Source of the DNA: a virus
Lineage: Duplodnaviria > Caudoviricetes
IMG/VR virus record: IMGVR_UViG_2061766007_000924
Span: 37,396 to 101,395 of that record
DNA: 64,000 nucleotides
Strand: one strand, 5' to 3'
Each line of letters begins with the position of its first letter. Position 1 is the stretch's first letter. The position numbers and the translations under genes are program-made. The notes below the pieces were generated by a model. That model ran no database searches. It saw nothing but the letters and a program-made list of their open reading frames with translations, and was not told the DNA's origin. This document shows, in pieces, positions 40,651 to 62,759 of this stretch.

Positions 40651-40726
40651 GTGCCGATAGTTCAGCTGGTAGAACACCGCACTTTTAATGCGGGGGTCGG
40701 GGGTTCGAGTCCCTCCCGGCGCACCA
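40651..40726 (+). tRNA. tRNA-Lys(TTT)
   Basis: Cloverleaf with anticodon arm CCGCA-CTTTTAA-TGCGG, TTCGAGT loop and CCA. Confidence 0.92.
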
Positions 40727-40878
40727 TCTCCAAGTTAGTGTGCGAGGCATGGTCAACGAAAACGAGAGAGTATCACGGCTTCTGGAGTGCAACCAGTCGT
40801 AGTTAAACAGTGAGATGGTATCGCAAAGCAGAAAACCATGTGTAGGGTTAAGCACGGCCCTGCTGACTTGGAGAGCCA
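40727..40878 (+). ncRNA. Unidentified structured RNA with a long closing stem and GCCA end
   Basis: TCTCCAAGTTAGT (40727-39) pairs with GCTGACTTGGAGA (40862-74), followed by GCCA. Confidence 0.55.
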
Positions 40879-40898
40879 AAAAACAAGAAAAACCTGCC

Positions 40899-41135
40899 GG
40901 AGCGCCGTCTGTGCTCTTAGCCATTCAGCACGAGACGGTTGGAGAATTAACAGCTGGATGATACATTAAAGCTCCGTAAACCGTGGGACTGGACGTGGAC
41001 ACTAAGAGATAGCTCATTGATCCTCCCAAAAGCATTGATGCTGAAAAGGGCTTGATAGGGACACTGAGCACTCGGAAACACCTTCCGCCGCAATCGCCAT
41101 GAAGTTGATTGGAGGTCTTCATGGACGCTCCGCCA
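40899..41135 (+). ncRNA. Unidentified structured RNA with an acceptor-like stem and GCCA end
   Basis: GGAGCG pairs with CGCTCC-GCCA. Internal stems CCGTCTGTGCT/AGCACGAGACGG and CCATGAAG/CTTCATGG. Confidence 0.5.
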
Positions 41136-41228
41136 GATGGGAGAACTTATGCATCTGGAATGTTGTCTTTGCATTCTGATTGATGCTGTGGGTGCCGCAG
41201 CGGGAAAAAGACAGGCACACTTATATAG

Positions 41229-41304
41229 GCTGTCATAGCTCAATTGGTGGAGCCTCTGACTTATAATCGGAAGGTTGAAGGTTCGATCCCTTCTGGCAGC
41301 ACCA
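41229..41304 (+). tRNA. tRNA-Ile(TAT)
   Basis: Acceptor GCTGTCA/TGGCAGC, anticodon arm TCTGA-CTTATAA-TCGGA, ACCA end. Confidence 0.88.
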
Positions 41305-41415
41305 GCGGCTCTCTTCCGGGCAGAAGAGTAGCCTCCTTCCAAGCGTCAAGGCTGCTGACATGGAAACATGTTGTACGATGAAAGGAAGCAGCGGCGTGAA
41401 AATCGCCAATTATAT

Positions 41416-41491
41416 CGGGGTGTAGCGCAGCTGGAAGCGCACCGCATTTGGGGTGCGGGGGCCGTGAGTTCAAATCTCACCACTCCGACCA
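41416..41491 (+). tRNA. tRNA-Pro(TGG)
   Basis: Acceptor CGGGGTG/CACTCCG, anticodon arm CCGCA-TTTGGGG-TGCGG, CCA. Confidence 0.92.
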
Positions 41492-41494
41492 TTT

Positions 41495-41584
41495 GCTGAC
41501 GTGGCAGAGAGGAAATGCAACGGTCTTGAAAACCGAGGTCAGGCTGAGAGGTCTGCGGGGGTTCGATTCCCTCCGTCAGCGCCA
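41495..41584 (+). tRNA. tRNA-Ser(TGA)
   Basis: Acceptor GCTGACG/CGTCAGC, loop CTTGAAA, long variable arm, GCCA. Confidence 0.88.
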
Positions 41585-49400: not shown

Positions 49401-51525
49401 CCGTTGAATCTATTGATGGTAGCTTGCTCATCCGTGAGGATATGGGCGCTTTCTGGAAAATGTTTGAAGATCCGTCATGGGCGAACAAAGATCATGAGCC
49501 AACGTGGTGCGAGTACCTGATGTGGGACAGGGCAAAGGGCACGGATATGCCGATGATGCTTGCGTATAAGTATTATGCAGACGATGAGAATGACGCTGAG
49601 GTTGAGAGGCGTATGGGGTATGAAGAATTTTCAAAAAGAGGGTGAAGCAGATGGATGAAAAGCTTTTTTATCGAGCAAGGGAAGAGGAAAACGGGGAAAT
49701 CGTGATTGAGGGCTATGCTTACGGCCCGGATTGGGTAGCAATGGCGATGTACATGGATGATTTGCTGTTTGATACTCCAGAAGAAGCTAAGGATTGGTGG
49801 AACAAGGAGAAGATGAATGGCTGAATACACAATCAAACCGAAAATTGAAATCAAGATCACAGATGAGGACATTGATGACATTATGAGTGCAGCTCTTGAG
49901 GGCGGCGTGAATTATTGGTGTTATCGGGTTGATGTTGTCGGAGGGAATTATCTGGGTGAGTGGGCGCATGAACAGATCAGCAGGGGTGGAAGACTGAGAC
50001 TTTTTGATGCGGAATCCGATGATACATGGATTCTGTCCAGAAAAAAGTTTTTGGAAGGTTTCAGACGTTGGGTGGAAAAGGGCTACGACAGCAATGGGGC
50101 GTGTTCATCTAATGGTGTTGACTGCTGTCTGATTGACGCTGGAGATGCTGACGTTATAGTTCAGTTAGCGATTTTTGGAGATGTCGTTTTTGGCTGATTG
50201 GAGGGGATACAGTGATGAACTGCAAAAACTGTGGATATAAGTATTGCGCTTTTCGCGGGGCTGACAGGGAAATTCCTGCTTACCTTTGCGAAGACTTTGA
50301 AGCAGTGAAAAAGGATGGAGAGCCATTGGCAGAGAAGAGATTTCCGCGAATGACTCCTTATGAGAGGACAAGGGCTGCGGTTTATGCGACAGGGAATCGC
50401 TGGGCGATTGAGAATTTTCATGCTACGCATGACTGAGAAGGGGGATTGAAGATGGGGCTTGACATGTATTTGGATCGGCTTCCGAGATATAAGCACTATT
50501 CGGTTCGGGATATGAACAACGTGGACAGCTATCTTGAGTGGCTGGATAGAGATGAAGAGTATAAGAAAGATTCGCTCGAAGCGTGGTGCGGCGTGGATGA
50601 GAAGGATCTTCCGCCGAAGGAAGACTTGGATTATCTCATTTCTCTTGCGAGACCGAGAACTTACGCATGGGATCATGAGAAACGGTATGAGAGAGTAAAG
50701 CTGAATGAGGGCGTTGCATATTGGCGCAAGGCGAATGCTATTCACAAATGGTTTGTTGATCACGTTCAGGACGGAGAAGATGACTGCGAGTATCATAGAG
50801 AAGTAACAAAGCAGGATCTTGAAGAGCTTCGAGATACATGCAAGGAAATTCTGGAGAAGTGCGTTCTCGTTAAAGGAAAAGTTCAGAACGGTTGGAAATG
50901 GGACAGCAAGAAAAACAAGGAAGTTCCGAACTATCAGGATGGTCTGCTGGTGGCAAATCCTGATGTGTGCAAAAAGACTCTTCCGAGCTGCGATGGATTT
51001 TTCTTCGGGGGCACAGAATACAACGAGTGGTACATAGAAGATGTGAGGTACACGTTTGAGACGCTGAGTAAGATCATTGAGGAGACAGACTTCGAGAAAC
51101 AGCAGCTTTGGTATTGCGCGTCTTGGTGATGGAGAATGAAAGAAAAGTATGATGTTTACTCTGAGTTTGATCTTGAGCAGCACAAAAAGCACTTCGTCAA
51201 CTATTTGGAGGTCATGATTGATGAGGACGGGAAAGTGCATTATGCTGTCCCGTCTCATCAAGAGTGGGCTATAGCGGAGGCGTGTAAAAGACTGGGCGTT
51301 ACGAGGCAAGAGCTTTCTGACATGACTCCACCAGAGTTCTATTTTGACTGGCTAAATTGGCTTTTGATGCAATGCAAGAGTGTAGCGGTATGGGAGGACT
51401 TCTACATGGCACCGATGGTCAACAAGAGGCAGTACGCAGCTCTGAGGCGGTTGAAAATGGACGGGGTATATAAAGGAAAGCTGTTAAGCAACGGATTGGA
51501 TTGGCACAGAATAGCAGAGGAGTAG
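46432..51525 (+). other. Run of acidic hypothetical early ORFs (e.g. 46432-46707, 47349-47678, 47856-48350, 48494-49009, 49019-49645, 50446-51129, 51136-51525)
   Basis: Co-oriented ORFs with strong RBSs. No recognisable catalytic motifs. Confidence 0.7.
48357..48423 (+). promoter_or_regulatory. Repeated phage promoter P7 (operator at 48467-48480)
   Basis: GCACAA-N16-CCGTGCG-N4-GTCAA-TGGAAA-N17-TAGAAT. Confidence 0.8.
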
Positions 51526-51983
51526 AGATGCAAGGAGTTGCGCCGAGTCGAAAAGCAAAGGAGCAGCACGGCAGGGAGAGGCAGAGCAAAGGAAAAGAAT
51601 CGTTTTGAAACGCAATGGCATAGAAGAGAAAAGAACCGCCAAGGAATTGCATGGCTAAGAATCACTTGGAATTGTAGATCGAGGGAAGCTACTGAATAGC
51701 ATGTATGGGATACGAAGCGCAAAGGCAGAGAGAGGAAGAGAGAGGAAGAGCGATGGAACAGCAAAGACGAGGAACGCCAAGGAATTGCATAGAGTAGATA
51801 GGCAGAGAGTTTGAAAAGAACCGCAATAGAGACGGGAGATTTGGAGAGCCTTGATTTGCAAAGGGAAAGTGTAGTGCGGCTTGGCAAAGGAATTGTAAAG
51901 ATACGAATTGCCAAGGAATAGCAGGGAATGAACAGCTAAGGACGAGAACAGTTGCGAACAGCAGAGGAGAGGAGGAGCAACGG
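51488..51983 (+). repeat. Array A1: GCNNNGG heptamers with (NNNNG)n-NNNN spacers, about 19 heptamers
   Basis: Heptamers at 51488, 51514, 51555, 51586, 51612, 51638, (51664), 51688, 51719, 51750, 51776, 51802, 51823, 51858, 51884, 51910, 51935, 51961, 51977. Spacers are mostly 19 or 24 nt with G at every fifth base. Confidence 0.85.
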
Positions 51984-52004
51984 ATGGAAAAGCACCTCCG
52001 TTAT

Positions 52005-52071
52005 GCACAAAAAAGAACACGAAAAACCGTGTATAACGTCAATAGACGGATGCTTGCTACAGCGTTAGAAT
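52005..52071 (+). promoter_or_regulatory. Repeated phage promoter P8, heading the unit that contains array A2 and RAMP gene A
   Basis: GCACAA-N16-CCGTGTA-N4-GTCAA-TAGACG-N17-TAGAAT. Confidence 0.8.
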
Positions 52072-52104: not shown

Positions 52105-52449
52105 GTGCTTTTGATGGATCTGAGAGATTACAAGGGTACGATTCGCGAGGCTGTTCGGCGTGAACGGCACTGTGATCAGAACTGGTCGTGGAAAGTGCTG
52201 GCAATCAGCAAGGAAAAGGCTTCAATCGCGTGGACGTATCTGACGGAGTATCTTGGGGAAAAGAGTTGCTTTGAGATTCGTGTGATCGAGGATAAGGTAG
52301 CTGGGACAGTCGTTGAGGCGAAGAGTCCTGACGGATTCAAAGTTATTCGGTTCATTGGAGAAGGGCGCTGGAACGATTTTGAGACTGTCGAAGAGGGGCT
52401 TGCAAGTGCGATTCATGGGGTTGCACAGCATGCTCACTGGGCTTACTGA
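52105..52449 (+). CDS. Hypothetical protein
   Basis: RBS AGGAGG. First gene after P8. Confidence 0.65.
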   Translation: MLLMDLRDYKGTIREAVRRERHCDQNWSWKVLAISKEKASIAWTYLTEYLGEKSCFEIRVIEDKVAGTVVEAKSPDGFKVIRFIGEGRWNDFETVEEGLASAIHGVAQHAHWAY

Positions 52450-52461
52450 GGAGGGTGCAAA

Positions 52462-52926
52462 ATGACTTACAAAGAATACAAGGTTATTCGTCAGAAGAGC
52501 GTCAATGATCTGCCCATCTTCTGGGCGTTCAGCAACAGTCAGTTCAAAGAAGCAATGGAGGAACGTGGTCTGACGGAGAACGACACTGACAAGATTTACA
52601 GTCTTGGTGGAGGCGGCTTTTATCTGAGGTCTGACGCTGAGGTGATTCACGCTTTCTTCAACAAAAAGGATGAGCTTCCTGAGCTCATGAAAGATCCGGC
52701 ATTTGCTGAGGAAGCTTTCTTCTATGAGATGAAGAATCATGAGTTCGGGATTAACTGGCAGGGAGCTTGGGATGTGTGTCGGTGCTTCGGCGACTGCGAG
52801 TACGGAGAGGAAAAGGGCGGAGTTGATTATCTCAGAGAGATGGGGTACGGAGAAGAGACGGTCGCTGCTTACAAGAGAGCAAAGAAGCATTATTACAAGA
52901 TGGCTGAGGAAAACGAGTGGTTTTAA
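52462..52926 (+). CDS. Phage hypothetical protein
   Basis: RBS GAGGAGG. 'FWAFSNSQF...GGGFY...YEMKNHEF'. Confidence 0.7.
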   Translation: MTYKEYKVIRQKSVNDLPIFWAFSNSQFKEAMEERGLTENDTDKIYSLGGGGFYLRSDAEVIHAFFNKKDELPELMKDPAFAEEAFFYEMKNHEFGINWQGAWDVCRCFGDCEYGEEKGGVDYLREMGYGEETVAAYKRAKKHYYKMAEENEWF

Positions 52927-52939
52927 TGGAGGCGCGACA

Positions 52940-53119
52940 ATGACGAGTAATCAGTATTGGATCTTTCTGGAGGAACTGAGGCGTTCTGGAGCAGTCAACA
53001 TGTATGGGGCCGGGCCTTACATCAAAGAGGTGTTTGGGGTCAGCAGTAGAGAGGCAAGAAACATTCTTGCTGACTGGATGGCGCACTACGATCCAAAAGA
53101 TTACGAAGCTATGGAGTAG
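52940..53119 (+). CDS. Small hypothetical protein whose stop codon lies inside the start of array A2
   Basis: RBS GGAGG. 'LEELRRSGAVNMYGAGPY'. Confidence 0.65.
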   Translation: MTSNQYWIFLEELRRSGAVNMYGAGPYIKEVFGVSSREARNILADWMAHYDPKDYEAME

Positions 53120-53812
53120 CATTGAACGGCGAAGTCTTGAAATGATTAGCGAAGGCGTAGCGCACAGGAGAATTGAGCGGCAAAGGCAGAGAATAGACGT
53201 GAGCTGATGTGCAATGGATTGGCACGGAATTGAAGGGAATGGTGCAGAGCTGCTATGGAATAGCTCAGAGTAGATAGGCAGAGGAGTGGAGTCGATTGGG
53301 TGAGAACTGCAATGGAAAGGCGGGGAGAGGTGTGGCAGCGCCACGGAGCAGCCATGGTTTGAAATGATATGCAATAGAAGAGCACAGAAGCGCTGAGGAT
53401 CGAAGTGCTAAGGCACAGCGTGGAGGGGGGATGAGGTGAACTGCAAAGGCATAGGCGTGCGAGGACGAGCGAGGCGAGGGAATAGCCGGGTGCTGAGTAG
53501 AAGCGCAACGGATTAGCGTGGACGAGAGTTGATTCGCAAAGGCAAAGAAAGGACAGGCACCGAACCGCTAAGGAGAGGTCAAGAGTCGCGCCGCCAAGGT
53601 AAGGTTCAGCAAGGACAGGATTTGCAGAGGCAAGGCATCGAAACGAATGGTTATGAGACGCAAGGGTGAGGCCACGGTCGGATCAGAGCCGCAAAGGTAA
53701 GGAGAGGCGTGAAAGGGACTTGCAATGCAAAGGAAAGGCGGGGGATCGCAGGGTAAGGAGTGGCACCGCAAAGGAAGGATTGCAATGGATTAGCATGGCG
53801 TAGTCAAGATGT
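53108..53812 (+). repeat. Array A2: 22 GCNNNGG-type heptamers with (NNNNG)n-NNNN spacers (putative guide RNA array)
   Basis: Spacer lengths 34,24,24,34,19,24,24,24,29,29,24,24,24,24,19,24,29,24,29,34,7,24. G at 90 of 92 expected fifth positions. Ends 38 bp before the RAMP-like gene. Confidence 0.92.
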
Positions 53813-53850
53813 GAAAAAACAAATTTAATTAAAAGGAAGGAATTGAAAAC

Positions 53851-54537
53851 ATGGAAAAGATCAACGTGAGAGCAACTTTTATCGAGAGCGTGCTTGGGAC
53901 TGCAAGCAACAACAAGAACATCTATGAGGAGTTCATTGCCAGCAAGGCACCGAATGCGATGAGCGCAGAGGAAGAGATTGCGGCAGTCGGTGTCAATGAG
54001 GTCGTAGAGAAGGGAACAACGGTGTTTCCGCGCATGGAAGACGGCACTCCGATGTTCTGGGATTACCAGATCAGAGGGTTCTTCAAGGACACTTGCGGAA
54101 TGCTGAGTAAGTTGACGGAAAAGGACGAGAACGGCAAGAAGAAAAAGGCTGTGAATGAGTCTGGAAAGATCACGGCATACAAGAAAGTGATTGACGGTCT
54201 GATTTTCGTAGAGCCGCGCAAGATTCCGATTAAGTTCAATGGAGACATTACGATTTGTCAGCGTCCGCTTCGCGCAATGACGGCGCAGGGTGAGAGAATT
54301 GCTCTGGCAAGTTCTGAGGAGATTCCGGCAGGAGCACAGATTGAGTTCTCTGTCGTGTGCATGAGCGCAGAGCATGTCAAGGCTGTCAAGGAATGGCTTG
54401 ATTACGGTTACTGGCGCGGACTTTCTCAGTGGCGCAATTCGGGTAAGGGCCGCTTTGTATACGAGATCCTTGACGATGACGGGAACGCCATTGAAGGGAA
54501 CACAAAGCTGGCGGGAAAATACTTGAAGACAGCGTGA
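53851..54537 (+). CDS. Stand-alone RAMP/Cas7-like protein A
   Basis: C-terminal Gly-rich loop 'GLSQWRNSGKGRF'. 'TPMFWDYQIRGFFK' sits at the position of the Cas7 IPGSS.KG motif. Thumb-like 'RPLRAMTAQGERIALASSEEIPAG'. Confidence 0.72.
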   Translation: MEKINVRATFIESVLGTASNNKNIYEEFIASKAPNAMSAEEEIAAVGVNEVVEKGTTVFPRMEDGTPMFWDYQIRGFFKDTCGMLSKLTEKDENGKKKKAVNESGKITAYKKVIDGLIFVEPRKIPIKFNGDITICQRPLRAMTAQGERIALASSEEIPAGAQIEFSVVCMSAEHVKAVKEWLDYGYWRGLSQWRNSGKGRFVYEILDDDGNAIEGNTKLAGKYLKTA

Positions 54538-54608: not shown

Positions 54609-54675
54609 AATGGTGCGAAGAGCTGAGAGATCAGCATTTTTCTTCGCACCAGATGTGCTAAATAGCGAATAGAAG

Positions 54676-56456
54676 ATGCCAACGAGCGGCAGGAGGGTTA
54701 TGATGGAAAACGCACTTGAAAAGCTGAATGGTCTGTTTGAAGAGCTTGTTCCTGATGCTGGGCCAGCGGAAACTAAAGCCGGGGAACTTGTTCGTGCTGT
54801 TAGCAGAATCGGATATCGTTACTACAACGATGGAGACAAGATTGGCGTGGAACGCGGGAACGAGACATGCAATGCTGCTGCGCGGTACATCATGAGCGAA
54901 TTTGCGGATCAGGACTTTTCATGGACTGTGAACGGAATGTGGGGCCTCGTGAGTGACAGGTACTATGAGAAGGGGCTTGGGCTCCTGATTGAGCAGGTTG
55001 TTAAATACATAGAGAGCGATCCTGAAATCTCGGAAGAGATAAACGAATGCGACTATGACGATGACTACTATGAGGCAGAGGATGCGGAGTGGGATAAAGA
55101 GGAGGAAGCTTTCGAGCCTGTGGCTGTGTACGATCCTGAGCCTGAGTGGGAGGAGTGAAATAAATGCTGAAATGCAATGGCTATAAGATGTTCAAGGGCA
55201 AGGTGCTTGTAGATTTTCAGAATGGAGCGAAGCCGTTTCCAGTTGAAGGGACGTGGCTTCATAAACCGGAGGATGCATGCTGGTATCTTGCGCCTACGGA
55301 CGGCTATCCGTGGGGGTACAGCTTCGATGACAAGTTTGTGACTATTCTGGAGGATGCGTCATGAGCATATCAGAACACAAGGTATATAGGGACATGAGAT
55401 TTCCGAAAGACTGCTGGGATAAGAAATGCATACACTTTCATTGCTGGGACATGAGTGTTGATGACATCTGCTGTTTGTGTGACATTTTGCAGAGAGAATG
55501 TGACGCTTGCGATGAAGACTTTAGCTACGTGAGATGTCCGCTGGATGAGAAAGATGGTACACGTTAGAGGTCGAAGAGTTTGAGGTTGAGCTGTGAGCTG
55601 GGAAACAATGTATGACAAGAGAGAGGGCATTGAGCCTCTTTTAGATAGGTTCAGGAGACTTCCGCTGTGGGCTGTTTCAATGGCTTATGCTTACGCATTT
55701 AACATAGCTCAATATGGAGTGGATGCTTCCGAGAAGTGGGAAACAATCACAAAGCAGCAGGAGATGCTTGACAGAGCATACAGAAAAGGCAGATATGATG
55801 AGGCTGCAAGATGGAGGGGAAAGTGTAATGGTTAGGGTCTACGGCTGTTCGGATGATCTTGTAGAGATTGAAGGAGCAAAATATCCAGATGATGAGATTG
55901 ATTGCTTCGACAAGGATATGCTGATCGGGTTCAAGGACGGAACAGAAATCCGAATTGGCTATCCGAAGGAAAACTTGGCTGTCTGGTGGATTGAGATTGA
56001 GAAAACAGGCGGAGCTGCTTATGCCATGAACCGCTGCTATGATCAGGACGCAGAAATCTACAGTGATGTGTTTTCTATCAACAGTGAGGTAGCATGGCAT
56101 AAGGCTGTGAGGAAGAAATACAAATGGGAGTAAGTGGAACGAAAAGGAAAGAGCTTCTTGCCGTTCAGAAAAGAGAAAATGGCACAGAACTTTGTGGCGT
56201 GGATGGAGTGTATGTAATTCCAAGTGGAAGAAAGCACGAAAGCGGATGGGCATGCATGGACTTTGTGGCGACATTCAGAGATGATAGACCGATGGTAAGG
56301 TTCGGCGGGATCTGTGATGATGTTTCGTTCTATGGCCCACATTTCAGAATGGACTGTGACCATCCGAGCAGGATCATTCACATTTGGAACAGTCATGGGA
56401 CATTCACGGTATCAGGAATGGATATTTCGAGCTTGAACTTCGCGGAAGAGGAATGA
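54676..56456 (+). other. Six hypothetical ORFs between P9 and system B
   Basis: Co-oriented, closely spaced ORFs. Confidence 0.65.
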
Positions 56457-56481
56457 AGGGAGAGAAAAAGAAGTGAGTTAG

Positions 56482-56547
56482 GGATTATGTGGTTGGCATG
56501 GGCAGGGTGTGGCTCGGATGGGTATGGCGCGGTTAGGTAAGGATTAT
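56482..56547 (+). repeat. Array B1: one unit of 10 GGY-NN pentamers between GGATTAT delimiters
   Basis: GGATTAT gt GGTtg GCAtg GGCag GGTgt GGCtc GGAtg GGTat GGCgc GGTta GGTaa GGATTAT. Confidence 0.88.
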
Positions 56548-56582
56548 ATGGAAAAAGAACAAAATGGAAAGGAATTGATTAA

Positions 56583-57173
56583 ATGAAAAAGCTGCATGTT
56601 ATTTTGAATGGTACGTCTCCGCTGATTGAGCATTCTCCGAAGTGTGTGAATCCGCTTCATCCGATTTCAAAGGAAATGAAGAAGTACACCAGCAAGAAGA
56701 AAAAGACAGAAGAGGATCTTATGAAGCTCAGTGACCTTGAGTGGGAAGCTGGAGTTTATTGGGATGACAACATTGGGCTTGTTATTCCTAACGAGTGCAT
56801 CGCTGCCACATTTCTCGCGGGGGCAAAGATGAACAAGAACGGCACCAACTTCCAGAAATATGTCCACATTATTGATGGACAGGCACCGCTGGACATTGGA
56901 GAGGTGCAGAATTATGATGAGCTCAAGACGGAGGCGAGATTTAGAGATGTCAGAAGCGTCTGCGTCATGAGATCAAGGGTTATTCGCACGAGACCGAGAT
57001 TCAACACATGGAGAACTGAGTTCGACATGATGTTTGACGAGACAAAGATTGACGTGGATGCAATCATCATGGCTATTGAGAATGCAGGAGCATATTGCGG
57101 AATGTGCGAGATGCGCAATATGGGCTACGGAAGATTCTCCGCAAATATCACAGAGGTAGAGATGGCTGCATAA
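56583..57173 (+). CDS. Stand-alone RAMP/Cas7-like protein B (Vipr-like)
   Basis: N-terminal 'LNGTSPLIEH', 'GLVIPNECI', 'RTRPRFNTWRTEF', and C-terminal Gly loop 'GAYCGMCEMRNMGYGRF'. Flanked on both sides by GGY-NN arrays. Confidence 0.78.
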   Translation: MKKLHVILNGTSPLIEHSPKCVNPLHPISKEMKKYTSKKKKTEEDLMKLSDLEWEAGVYWDDNIGLVIPNECIAATFLAGAKMNKNGTNFQKYVHIIDGQAPLDIGEVQNYDELKTEARFRDVRSVCVMRSRVIRTRPRFNTWRTEFDMMFDETKIDVDAIIMAIENAGAYCGMCEMRNMGYGRFSANITEVEMAA

Positions 57174-57178
57174 GGTTT

Positions 57179-57365
57179 GGATTTTGCGGCGGGGTTCGGT
57201 CTGACTGGTTCCGGCAAGGCAGGGTATGGTTGGATGCGGTTAGGTAAGGATTATGCGGCATGTTCTGGTTAGGATCGGTAATGCGAGGTAAGGTAAGGTA
57301 CGACATGGCGTGGATTATTAGGTTGGGCCCGGCGCGGATTGGTGAGGCGTGGTCAGGTAAGGCAA
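57179..57365 (+). repeat. Array B2: three units of 12, 11 and 9 GGY-NN pentamers
   Basis: Delimiters GGATTTT (57179), GGATTAT (57248) and GGATTAT (57312). Confidence 0.9.
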
Positions 57366-57387
57366 GAAACATGAAAGGAGACAATAC

Positions 57388-57858
57388 ATGAACAGAAAAG
57401 AAAAAGTACAGGCGCTCGTGCAGGAGTTTCTGGGCAAGGACTACGGAGGCTCAATGACTCATTATGAGATTGCGAGTGTTATTGAAGAGAGAGAAGGGTC
57501 TACAAAATATAGGAGCATTGTTGAGGCGGCGCAGAAAAAGCTCCTTGAATGTGGAAAGATGATCGAGAATGTGCGCGGGGTAGGGTATAGAGTAATCAAT
57601 CCTGATGAGTACACGGGGCAGTCTGCAAGATGCGTTGTCAGTGGAGCAAAGAGAATTGACAAAGGCACAAAGATTTTGCAGAACGCTCCAGTGAAGGACA
57701 TGACTCAGGACGGTGTTACCCAGTACAACATGATTTCAGACAAGATCAGGATTCTACAGGCCGCTGTATGCGGAGCTAAGGTAGAAATTAACATGCTCAG
57801 TTCTAAGAGGGAAAATCCCTTGAAGAGGATGAGCGAACGGGCAGGATTGTTCAGGTAA
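57388..57858 (+). CDS. Hypothetical accessory protein embedded between arrays B2 and B3 (possible winged helix plus helical tail)
   Basis: RBS AAGGAG, 156 aa. 'MIENVRGVGYRV' resembles a wHTH wing. Confidence 0.7.
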   Translation: MNRKEKVQALVQEFLGKDYGGSMTHYEIASVIEEREGSTKYRSIVEAAQKKLLECGKMIENVRGVGYRVINPDEYTGQSARCVVSGAKRIDKGTKILQNAPVKDMTQDGVTQYNMISDKIRILQAAVCGAKVEINMLSSKRENPLKRMSERAGLFR

Positions 57859-58194
57859 GGTTTATATGGCTGGGCGAGTCGAGTTTAGGTCAGGCATGGT
57901 GAGATCAGGAGAGACATGGCAAGGCGAGTTCGGGCGGGGTATGGTATGGATTATAAGGCAAGGAATGGTCAGGTAAGGCGTGGTCAGGTAAGGTTAGGAA
58001 TATGAGGTTAGGCATGGTAATGAAGGCACGGTCAGGTAAGGCACGGTCAGGTGAGGCAAGGGTTATAAGGTCAGGCAAGTATGGGCGAGGTCGGTTCTGG
58101 CGTGGAATGGTAAGGGTTATAAGGTAAGGCGGGTTAGGGTTAGGAATGTTAGGGCATGTTCAGGCATGGTATGGCACGGTATGGTAAAAATTAT
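57859..58194 (+). repeat. Array B3: five units of 16, 8, 11, 9 and 13 GGY-NN pentamers
   Basis: Delimiters GGTTTAT (57859), GGATTAT (57948), GGAATAT (57997), GGGTTAT (58060), GGGTTAT (58114) and AAATTAT (58188). Confidence 0.9.
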
Positions 58195-58215
58195 AGCGAA
58201 AAGGAGAGTGACTGA

Positions 58216-59031
58216 ATGATCGGAGCGATTATTGGAGATATTGTAGGCAGCAGATTCGAGTTCAACAACATCAAGTCTAAGGACTTTGAGTTCCTGCATC
58301 CCGATTGCAGGACTACGGATGACACAGTGATGACTTGTGCAGTAGCCGAGGCGCTGATGCGGAGCTGGAGACTGGACAGGTTTGAGACGCTGCCTGATGT
58401 GGCAAGAGAGACACTGAGACAGATTGGGTACTGGTATCCGTATTGCGGGTTCGGCGGCAAGTTCATCAAGTGGATCTATTCTGAGAAAGATCCTGAGCCG
58501 TACAACAGCTGCGGCAACGGGGCTGCAATGAGAATCAGCGCTGTAGGAGACATCGCTGAGAGCATCAAGGAAGCGAAGATGCTGAGTCATGGGGTGACGG
58601 TGATCAGTCATAATCATCCAGAAGGGCTCAAGGGTGCTGAGGCTGTAGCTGTAGCAAATTTCCTTGCACGGTCTGGAAAGAGTAAGAAGGAGATCCGCAA
58701 GTACATTGAGGACAACTACTATGAGCTTGACAAGACCGTAGAGGACTACAGGCACGAGACGCTTGGGCACGGTAAAGAGATTTGCCAGATCAGTGTACCA
58801 CAGGCGTTTGTGTGCTTCTTTGAGGGCAAGAGCTACAGGGATGTGATTCGCAACTGCATTTCGATTGGCGGCGACAGCGACACGATTGCGGCAATTGCCG
58901 GAGGCATTGCAGAGGCGTTCTATGGAGTTCCTGATAGTGACGTGAGGATGGCGAGAAGGTACATGGATACAACCATGAGAGACATCTATGACTCTTTTGA
59001 GACTTTCAAGAAAATTAAAGTGGGAGGTTGA
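58216..59031 (+). CDS. ADP-ribosylglycohydrolase family protein
   Basis: 'GAIIGDIVGS', 'TTDDT', 'SCGNGAAMR', 'SHNHPEG', 'GGDSDTIAAIAG'. Confidence 0.92.
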   Translation: MIGAIIGDIVGSRFEFNNIKSKDFEFLHPDCRTTDDTVMTCAVAEALMRSWRLDRFETLPDVARETLRQIGYWYPYCGFGGKFIKWIYSEKDPEPYNSCGNGAAMRISAVGDIAESIKEAKMLSHGVTVISHNHPEGLKGAEAVAVANFLARSGKSKKEIRKYIEDNYYELDKTVEDYRHETLGHGKEICQISVPQAFVCFFEGKSYRDVIRNCISIGGDSDTIAAIAGGIAEAFYGVPDSDVRMARRYMDTTMRDIYDSFETFKKIKVGG

Positions 59032-60098: not shown

Positions 60099-60755
60099 TA
60101 ATGTGGACAGGTACGTATGGGTATTTGCACCTTGAGAAATGGATATGTGACGTTGATAACTCAGTGAAGACGCAATGCGATGTTGCGGCTGAGAAGCGTC
60201 CGAAAAGTGCTCGGAGGACACGAAAGACGGATACGTCTGGAAACCTGACCGCGCCCTGATGGTGACTGAAAGGGCGAATCCCTGTTGGGAGAAAGTAAAG
60301 GCGCTGTGCTAAAGTTATCGCAAGCAAAGGCATCCGTGGAGTGGCGGGAGCAATAGAAGGTGGGCGTTAAAAGCGTGACCTGAATCCTGATAAGGCATTA
60401 GCTGGTGACTGTTGCAGACTCAGGAAAGACCAACAATCTCGTTTGCGGTGATGTCGTGGAAACACGGCTATAACACTCTACAGAATCGGAGTAGCAGAAA
60501 TCGCAGTGACAAAATGATATTAGAAGAAAATGTTTTATTGAAGAACATCTTATTCTGAATATCCTGTGAAACGTGCTCGTAAACAGTCGGGTGGCAGCTT
60601 GTGGAGAAATCCAAGGGCAAGAAGTTATATGGGGACGCTCATGTGGCTCAGACTTGTCTTCTGCGTGGCTGAATATGCTTGAAGGTAGCAGAGGTAAGAC
60701 GAAGGTCTATCAATGAAACGTATTCATTTCTCAGGGTGCAAAACCTGCCACATTA
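60099..60755 (+). ncRNA. Large structured ncRNA (~655 nt), ROOL-like
   Basis: No credible ORF. Extended -10 TGATAAAAT upstream and a terminator downstream. The 5' and 3' ends form two long helices. Phage/tRNA context. Confidence 0.7.
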
Positions 60756-62112: not shown

Positions 62113-62188
62113 GCTGTCGTGGCGCAACGGGCAGCGCACGCGATTTGTAATCGTGAGGTTGGAGGTTCGATTCCTCTCGGCAGCTCCA
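62113..62188 (+). tRNA. tRNA-Thr(TGT)
   Basis: Acceptor GCTGTCG/CGGCAGC, anticodon arm CGCGA-TTTGTAA-TCGTG, CCA. Confidence 0.9.
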
Positions 62189-62191
62189 TAC

Positions 62192-62266
62192 AGTGATGTA
62201 GCATAATGGTAATGCACCTGACTTTGACTCAGGGTATTGGAGGTTCGAGTCCTTCCGTCACTGCCA
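62192..62266 (+). tRNA. tRNA-Gln(TTG)
   Basis: Acceptor AGTGATG/CGTCACT, anticodon arm CCTGA-CTTTGAC-TCAGG, GCCA. Confidence 0.9.
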
Positions 62267-62352
62267 GTAGTATCGCCAAACAACAAAACTGGTGTCACGA
62301 AGTCCGCGAGACTTAATGTGCTGTGTGAGGATCGAGCCGCCAGTAACAAAAT

Positions 62353-62428
62353 GGTTCTTTAGCTCAATTGGCAGAGCATGCGGCTGTTAACCGCAGGGTT
62401 ACAAGTTCGATTCTTGTAAGAACCGCCA
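62353..62428 (+). tRNA. tRNA-Asn(GTT)
   Basis: Acceptor GGTTCTT/AAGAACC, anticodon arm TGCGG-CTGTTAA-CCGCA, GCCA. Confidence 0.92.
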
Positions 62429-62509
62429 CAACTGTCAAAAGCCACATTGACAGTCTCGAAAGAGTTGCAGGAAGGGCGCACCCGCACTGCGTAAAATGGG
62501 GTGCTACAT

Positions 62510-62598
62510 GTAGCCTTGCTCGAATTGGTAAGAGGCAAGATTGCTAATCTTAGGCCACGGGAAACTGTGTACAGGTTCGAGTCCTGTAGGCTACGCCA
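62510..62598 (+). tRNA. tRNA-Ser(GCT)
   Basis: Acceptor GTAGCCT/AGGCTAC, loop TTGCTAA, long variable arm, GCCA. Confidence 0.85.
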
Positions 62599-62685
62599 GA
62601 GGGATGACTGCTTTTGACTTCGTTCTAATCTAACCTCATAAAAGGGAAGAAACGAGTCGCGCCCACTGCGAGAGTGTGGGATTAT

Positions 62686-62759
62686 GCGGGTGTAGTTCAA
62701 TGGTAGAACAACAGCCTTCCAAGCTGTGGACACGAGTTCGATCCTCGTTATCCGCTCCA
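62686..62759 (+). tRNA. tRNA-Gly(TCC)
   Basis: Acceptor GCGGGTG/TATCCGC, anticodon arm ACAGC-CTTCCAA-GCTGT, TCCA. Confidence 0.92.

What the first reader, a model, noticed from the sequence alone, without database searches (positions are those of the whole stretch)
53108..54537. System A: lone RAMP/Cas7-like gene with a 5-nt-phased array in which every fifth base is G (candidate new RNA-guided system)
Seen: the 705 bp before gene 53851-54537 parse exactly into 22 heptamers of consensus GCNNNGG (GCAAAGG, GCAATGG, GCTATGG, GCTAAGG...) separated by unique spacers. 21 of 22 spacers are 5n+4 nt long (19/24/29/34) and 90 of 92 expected fifth positions are G. Example: GCAAAGG cagaG aataG acgtG agctG atgt GCAATGG attgG cacgG aattG aaggG aatgG tgcaG agct GCTATGG. 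The base after each G is mostly A or C; the others vary. The 228-aa protein ends in a RAMP-type Gly loop (GLSQWRNSGKGRF). No cas1/2/3/5/6/8/10 gene and no CRISPR repeat is present in the window. Known: Cas7-family RAMPs polymerise along guide RNA with a fixed nucleotide step per subunit and flip out one base per step. Inference: each pentamer is one subunit footprint, the fixed G is protein-bound, the variable bases encode a gapped target, and the heptamer is a handle or processing site. This would be a minimal phage-encoded RNA-guided binder, possibly directed at competing phages or host genes. The grammar differs from the GGY-NN code of system B, so it may be an undescribed type.
Basis: partly seen in the sequence, partly recalled or inferred. 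Interest (0 to 1): 0.96.

Follow-up and report, generated by a model that had tools for sequence, protein, structure and literature searches.

The report
Phage VIPR guide-RNA array, non-canonical type
A rumen-type phage carries a small Cas7-like protein next to long arrays in which every fifth base is G. This is a divergent member of the VIPR RNA-guided silencing systems first described in 2026 preprints, so it is real and interesting but not a new kind of system.

The parts
53108..53810 (+). Array A: about 21 units of GCNNNGG plus (NNNNG)k, each 26-41 nt, with G every fifth base. Candidate vrRNA array of NNNNG type with a +1 register slip at each heptamer.
   Evidence: parse, 83 of 88 phased G; the RNA folds worse than all 20 shuffles, z +1.88; skeleton conserved, N positions hypervariable in relatives.
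53811..53850 (+). A/T-rich leader with a Shine-Dalgarno-like AAAGGAAGGA directly before the gene. The equivalent leader is conserved in relatives.
   Evidence: sequence; the leader is conserved among L009, L011, L012 and L013 while their arrays differ.
53851..54537 (+). vipr-like gene: a 228-aa stand-alone Cas7-type RAMP with a helical insertion at residues 24-55, a thumb hairpin at 134-158 and a G-loop GLSQWRNSGKGRF at 190-202.
51526..51990 (+). Array B: a second array with the same grammar (GCAAAGG, GCAATGG and GCCAAGG heptamers, G every fifth base). Probably part of the same system.
   Evidence: The equivalent array is present in relative L017 at 1170-1520.
52105..53119 (+). Three small genes between the two arrays: 114 aa; 154 aa with DUF7659; 59 aa starting at 52940. 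No known link to the system, and not conserved next to distant homologs.
54622..54645 (+). Terminator-like hairpin with a T run, downstream of the gene.
   Evidence: consensus scan only.

Best explanation
This is a VIPR (Viral Interference Programmable Repeat) system of a non-canonical type. The + strand arrays (53108-53810, and probably 51526-51990) are likely transcribed with the flanking genes and cut into short guide RNAs (vrRNAs). Copies of the 228-aa Cas7-like Vipr protein polymerise along each RNA, one protomer per pentamer. The invariant G is held by the G-loop and thumb, and the variable bases are presented to read a gapped DNA target in a competing phage or satellite, which silences it. 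Here the canonical GGY/NN repeat is reduced to one fixed G followed by a mostly A or C base. Units are short (5-8 repeats) and are punctuated by GCWAWGG, where the register slips by +1. Shown here: the array grammar, the RAMP fold, the conserved gene-array association, hypervariable N positions on a conserved skeleton, and a canonical VIPR in the same phage. Inferred by homology: transcription, filament formation, DNA targeting and silencing. Open: which of the four N positions pair, and how many target bases are skipped.
For: The fold is Cas7-type RAMP. The G-loop motif QWRNSGKGRF aligns with DWRP-RFGRF of the solved SUSP1 Vipr through the window's 196-aa Vipr homolog. The A1 profile also picks up that G-loop within the phage itself (E 0.008). 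In 15 of 15 evaluable IMG/VR homolog loci (43-60% identity) a lag-5 G array lies directly up- or downstream of the gene, and almost nowhere else in the 8.6-kb loci; a few isolated 100-nt windows elsewhere also pass the lag-5 threshold. The arrays show the same GCWAWGG punctuation at 26/31/36/41-nt spacing. Arrays differ in content and length between phages whose gene is about 90% identical in DNA, and one unit reappears at another position. Window and L017 share the G and heptamer skeleton but not the N positions. The array RNA avoids secondary structure. No CRISPR repeat family was found, and the record is a phage genome of 101 kb. The VIPR paper reports stand-alone phage RAMPs flanked by long intergenic arrays of pentanucleotide repeats. 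It includes NNNGG, YNNNG and NNNNG variants and staggered arrays offset by 1 nt. The structure paper shows one protomer per repeat, with G1 read by H17 and D177 and G2 read by R138 and W178. In this family W and R of the G-loop are kept while the two G1-contacting positions align to T17 and an invariant Q193. That fits loss of the first G, but it is an inference from a weak alignment.
Against: Sequence similarity to characterised Vipr proteins is weak (hhalign probability 41%). The A1 profile did not reach the SUSP1 Vipr chain in the PDB sequence search. I could not see the paper's figures or tables, so I cannot say whether this family is one of the seven published types. No structured 3' tail like that of SUSP1 vrRNAs is evident, and units are half as long in repeats as SUSP1 vrRNAs. 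No conserved accessory (vap) gene was seen.
Confidence: 0.85

Rival explanations
1. The RAMP and array form a ribonucleoprotein, but with a different job from DNA silencing. Examples are RNA targeting as in type III or type VII Cas7 backbones, or a scaffold or decoy RNA that soaks up a competitor's Vipr.
For: The closest solved folds are RNA-targeting type III and type VII Cas7 proteins. Solo or decoy vrRNAs that redirect another element's Vipr are documented. No natural DNA target was found.
Against: The only characterised relatives (type II VIPR) bind dsDNA and repress transcription. The gene sits directly beside its own arrays in all evaluable loci, which argues for a cognate guide rather than a decoy.
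Confidence: 0.08
2. The arrays are long purine-rich leaders or sponges that act without the RAMP. For example, repeated AGG/GGA Shine-Dalgarno-like or CsrA-like sites could titrate ribosomes or a host RNA-binding protein.
For: The arrays are rich in AAGG, AGGA and GAGG and lie directly upstream of genes. The RNA is predicted to be unstructured.
Against: This does not explain the strict 5-nt phase, the 5k+1 unit lengths, or the specific co-occurrence with one protein family. It also does not fit the arrays lying downstream of the gene in 5 loci.
Confidence: 0.04
3. The repeats act as DNA. They would be iteron-like or centromere-like binding sites, with G's about every half helical turn (660 nt per 128 steps, 10.3 bp per two steps), for a DNA-binding protein.
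For: The average period of 5.16 nt is close to half a B-DNA turn (my arithmetic). Arrays occupy intergenic DNA.
Against: The signal is strictly strand-specific and always on the gene's coding strand (no C-phase arrays). The neighbouring protein is an RNA-binding RAMP and not a DNA-binding fold. N positions are hypervariable, unlike iterons.
Confidence: 0.02
4. The long ORFs on the - strand (for example 52832-53374 and 53146-53508) are real genes, and the periodicity is a by-product of them.
For: ORFs of 120-180 aa exist on the - strand.
Against: They overlap one another in different frames, as expected from a pyrimidine-rich strand that is poor in stop codons. They have no Pfam family. A 5-nt period is incompatible with a reading frame. 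Array length and content change between close relatives.
Confidence: 0.01

Closest known systems
VIPR systems: Vipr RAMP plus vrRNA, as in type II of Escherichia phage SUSP1 and a Pseudomonas fulva prophage (bioRxiv 10.64898/2026.04.26.720920, 10.64898/2026.04.26.720927, 10.64898/2026.10.15.759431)
   Same: Phage-encoded, stand-alone small RAMP with RRM core, helical bundle, thumb and G-loop. Flanked by long intergenic arrays of pentanucleotide repeats with conserved G and hypervariable N. No CRISPR array and no adaptation genes. Arrays lie on the gene's strand, either up- or downstream.
   Different: One fixed G plus an A/C-biased next base instead of GGY. Units have 5-8 repeats instead of 9-16. 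No structured pseudoknot tail; instead a 7-nt GCWAWGG punctuation with a +1 register slip. No conserved accessory gene was seen. Protein similarity to type II Vipr is only at profile level (E 2.7e-4). The decoding rule is unknown.
Non-canonical VIPR variants: 'NNNGG, YNNNG and NNNNG repeats' and 'staggered arrays' (methods and fig. S18 legend of 10.64898/2026.04.26.720920); 21 non-canonical 5-mer clusters in the Evo-PIN survey (10.64898/2026.10.21.760802)
   Same: The NNNNG consensus and the 1-nt stagger between successive vrRNAs fit what is seen here. The 5-nt period co-locates with a Vipr-like fold.
   Different: Those variants were only catalogued, and none was tested experimentally. I could not view the figures to confirm that the GCWAWGG-punctuated architecture or this protein clade is among them. 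The Evo-PIN non-canonical motifs listed (GAC/NN, CAC/NN, WGT/NN, TGH/NN) are not this one.
Class 1 CRISPR Cas7 backbone proteins: type III Csm3/Cmr4 and type VII Cas7
   Different: A 5-nt rather than 6-nt step. A base-specific fixed G in every step. No CRISPR repeats, no Cas5/Cas6/Cas10/Cas1/Cas2. Encoded by a virus.
The canonical GGY/NN VIPR in the same window (arrays 56441-56600, 57175-57380 and 57830-58210; vipr 56583-57173)
   Same: Same phage, same strand, same gene-plus-flanking-array layout. The C-terminal G-loop motif RNxGxGRF is shared.
   Different: Its protein is a clear SUSP1 Vipr homolog (E 2.4e-31). Its repeats are GGNNN with GGWTTATRNGG separators. A 156-aa gene of no known family follows it, which could be an accessory gene. 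The cassette is absent from relative L017.

Membership tests
VIPR (Vipr + vrRNA) | Sequence homology to an experimentally characterised Vipr (SUSP1 Vipr, X1U2U4 lineage) | tested here: inconclusive
   hhalign A1 against the 196-aa Vipr family: probability 41%, E 2.7e-4, colinear over 174 columns. The A1 HMM hits that protein's G-loop at E 0.008. No hit to PDB 36pp in the profile search.
VIPR (Vipr + vrRNA) | Gene flanked by long intergenic tandem pentanucleotide repeats with conserved G positions and hypervariable N positions | tested here: met
   (window). (15 of 15 evaluable homolog loci). (skeleton conserved, N positions variable).
VIPR (Vipr + vrRNA) | Non-CRISPR, mostly viral context | tested here: met
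   G000 is a 101-kb virus record, 92% complete. No CRISPR-DR family in the Rfam scan. Atlas neighbours are 88-98% viral.
VIPR (Vipr + vrRNA) | Arrays are expressed as discrete vrRNAs that co-purify with Vipr | not testable with these tools
   No RNA run on record. This needs small-RNA sequencing and a pull-down.
VIPR (Vipr + vrRNA) | Variable bases match natural targets in competing mobile elements under a gapped rule | tested here: inconclusive
   Four exact-match IMG/VR scans on two guides gave no hit above chance. No mismatch-tolerant search was possible after the script machine was lost.
VIPR type II (SUSP1 clade) | YNNGG repeats (GGY/NN), 9-16 per vrRNA, followed by a conserved structured tail | tested here: not met
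   Only one G is fixed. The base before it is G in about 35% of pentamers, by my hand count. Units have 5-8 repeats and the separator is the 7-nt GCWAWGG. So this is not type II.
Class 1 CRISPR-Cas | CRISPR repeat-spacer array (repeats of about 24-40 nt) with Cas5/Cas6 and large-subunit or adaptation genes | tested here: not met
   No CRISPR-DR family. Only two RAMP genes in the whole 101-kb record. Neighbouring ORFs have no cas-related Pfam family.

The most novel reading that the evidence does not exclude
This very large RAMP clade (1676 clusters at 50% identity) may lie outside the seven published VIPR types and may use a different recognition code. With only one protein-held base per pentamer, three or four bases per subunit could pair with the target, either Cas7-like as 4+1 or as NNN plus a skip. 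That would give 20-32 informative bases from units of only 5-8 subunits. The GG slip would serve as the nucleation or processing mark of back-to-back minimal guides.
Probability: 0.3. Interest if true: 0.75.

Novelty: new member of a known kind. Interest (0 to 1): 0.5.

Why it matters
VIPR is a months-old discovery: a guide-RNA code read in gapped pentamers by a single protein of about 20 kDa, proposed to be ancestral to CRISPR RAMPs. This locus shows that a one-G variant of the code is carried by an enormous, unannotated family of gut and rumen phage proteins with no Pfam or PHROG family. It also shows that a single phage can carry two VIPR systems with different repeat grammars side by side, presumably kept apart by protein-repeat specificity. 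The one-G variant is the natural test case for how much of the pentamer can be freed for target reading. If three or four bases per subunit pair, it would be a denser and shorter programmable DNA binder than the published type II system.

Tried and rejected
1. Pfam and PHROGs gave nothing for the 228-aa protein or its neighbours except DUF7659.

2. BLAST of the locus against GenBank phages found only three unannotated human-gut phage records, and they matched the gene only.

3. RNA evidence: no RNA holder was listed for the stretch.

4. Natural-target scans of IMG/VR used exact patterns.
- Window unit 4 under a symmetric period-5 rule gave 0 hits.
- A unit conserved in four rumen phages under the symmetric rule returned only the four arrays themselves.
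- The same unit under NNN plus 1 skip gave 20 hits. They collapse to 4 unrelated A/T-rich families, 16 of them one near-identical sequence, which is the number expected by chance for 17.5 specified bases.
- The same unit under NNNN with the G deleted gave 0 hits.
- The canonical NN plus 1 skip rule could not be tested this way, because a unit gives only 10-16 specified bases.

6. The script machine was lost. Planned positional-entropy tables, shuffled-guide controls and mismatch-tolerant target searches were not run. Positional counts in the report are hand counts.

7. I considered and dropped four ideas: a TRAP-like (G/U)AG 5-nt binding site, a CsrA/RsmZ-like GGA sponge, DNA iterons, and - strand genes. 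See the rival explanations.

8. The search of earlier findings returned nothing for this genome.

Full report
**Observation**

The stretch 53108-53850 is non-coding on the + strand and purine-rich (G 275, A 241, C 114, T 113). G autocorrelation is 1.71 at lag 5 and 1.58 at lag 10, and then drifts to lags 11, 16 and 21. Other lags are 0.7-0.9.

Reading the parse shows that the heptamer is a register slip. Its first G and the G five bases later are in the old phase, and the adjacent second G starts the new phase. Units are therefore 5k+1 nt long (26, 31, 36 or 41 nt, with 31 commonest).

By my hand count, the base after the fixed G is A in 55% and C in 29% of pentamers. The other three positions vary.

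**Surroundings**

The same lag-5 G signal marks five + strand intergenic arrays in the window.
- Array 51441-52021 has the same grammar as the finding, with GCAAAGG, GCAATGG and GCCAAGG heptamers.
- Arrays 56441-56621, 57141-57441 and 57801-58241 are GGNNN pentamers separated by GGWTTATRNGG.

The genome is an IMG/VR virus record of 101,395 bp, 92% complete. The DNA appears to come from a bovine gut metagenome.

**The protein**

Pfam and PHROGs give nothing for the 228-aa protein. The family is huge: more than 7,787 clusters at 90% identity and 1,676 at 50%. It is almost entirely unnamed and mostly viral.

A 61-sequence alignment (A1) gave an AlphaFold model with pLDDT 90.7 and pTM 0.84.
- Foldseek's best hits are all Cas7 proteins: type VII Cas7, Csm3, Cas7-11 and type IV Csf2, with E about 1e-7.
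- The A1 profile also hits type VII Cas7 (E 3.9e-5) and Csm4 through the C-terminal G-loop.

The RAMP claim is therefore confirmed.

**Conservation of the association**

Sixteen IMG/VR loci encode homologs at 43-60% identity. In 15 of them an array with lag-5 G signal lies directly upstream (10 loci) or downstream (5 loci) of the gene, and almost nowhere else in the 8.6-kb loci; a few isolated 100-nt windows elsewhere also pass the lag-5 threshold. The sixteenth locus is cut at the contig end. GCWAWGG sites cluster in those arrays at spacings of 26, 31, 36 and 41 nt, or sums of two of these.

Among near relatives the gene and its leader are about 90% identical in DNA while the array content differs. 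One unit reappears at a different position (L009 against L011, L012 and L013).

A relative with a 79% identical protein (L017) keeps the flanking genes and the G and heptamer skeleton. Its N positions are different and its array is 340 nt instead of 700 nt.

The array RNA folds worse than all 20 shuffles, z +1.88, as expected for a single-stranded, protein-bound scaffold.

**What it is**

The 196-aa protein at 56583-57173, flanked by the GGNNN arrays, matches the solved 'SUSP1 Vipr protein' (PDB 36pp) at E 2.4e-31. That match led to three 2026 preprints on VIPR systems.

The preprints describe the following.
- The systems are phage-encoded stand-alone RAMPs flanked by intergenic arrays of pentanucleotide repeats (canonically YNNGG).
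- One Vipr protomer binds each repeat, sequestering GGY and presenting NN.
- The RNP reads dsDNA with one skipped base per repeat and represses transcription of competing phages and satellites.
- The methods state that some types use NNNGG, YNNNG or NNNNG repeats.
- A supplementary legend describes 'staggered' arrays whose vrRNAs are offset by 1 nt.

The finding fits that description.

The 228-aa family aligns colinearly with the 196-aa Vipr family, but only weakly (hhalign E 2.7e-4, probability 41%). Its HMM also detects that protein's G-loop in the phage (E 0.008).

I mapped the published contacts through. The G2-stacking Trp and the following Arg of the G-loop are kept here as W194 and R195, both nearly invariant. 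The two G1-contacting residues (H17 and D177 in SUSP1) align to T17 and an invariant Q193. That would explain why only one G is fixed. This step is inference from a weak alignment.

**Mechanism and limits**

By homology, the arrays are transcribed and processed, and the RAMP forms a filament with one subunit per pentamer. The fixed G, and probably the A/C base after it, are protein-held. Some or all of the remaining bases read a gapped target.

None of this is shown for this variant. No RNA data exist. Four exact-match target scans gave nothing above chance. Mismatch-tolerant searches could not be run after the script machine failed.

No conserved accessory gene was seen, and there is no structured tail.

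**Comparison and novelty**

This is not type II VIPR, because the repeat consensus, unit length and tail all differ. It is not a CRISPR-Cas system either. It has no CRISPR repeats, and no cas-related Pfam family among the neighbouring ORFs scanned. A1 finds only two RAMP genes in the record.

It is best filed as a member of the recently described VIPR kind, in the catalogued but uncharacterised NNNNG/staggered class. I could not check whether this protein clade is one of the seven published types.

The remaining open and valuable question is the decoding rule of the one-G repeat.

Noticed in passing
window 56441-58210: A second, canonical-looking VIPR system. The vipr gene at 56583-57173 (196 aa) matches the solved SUSP1 Vipr at E 2.4e-31. 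It is flanked by GGNNN arrays (56441-56600, 57175-57380, 57830-58210) with GGWTTATRNGG separators, and followed by a 156-aa gene (57388-57858) of no known family that may be an accessory gene.
   Followed up: partly
window 56441-58215 versus L017 4229-4668: The relative L017 (79% identical 228-aa protein) has the ADP-ribosylglycohydrolase gene but no type-II-like VIPR cassette in front of it. The cassette therefore looks like a gain or loss between close phages.
   Followed up: partly
window 60136-60727 (+): A full-length ROOL RNA (Rfam RF03087, 319 bits) lies about 2 kb downstream of the VIPR cassettes.
   Followed up: no
window 40651-41581 and 62113-62756 (+): Two clusters of tRNA genes, nine tRNAs in all by Rfam.
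   Followed up: no
window 58216-59031 (+): An ADP-ribosylglycohydrolase family gene (PF03747, E 6.8e-33) lies directly after the last GGNNN array.
   Followed up: no
L009 3640-3980 versus L012 3440-3980: One guide unit (GG aaaaG caagG actcG agtcG atctG agtt GC..) is shared by four rumen phage contigs but sits at different positions in their arrays. This suggests unit-wise rearrangement or exchange rather than point drift.
   Followed up: partly
window 52462-52926 (+): A DUF7659 protein (E 1.4e-20) lies between the two NNNNG arrays. No link to the system is known.
   Followed up: no
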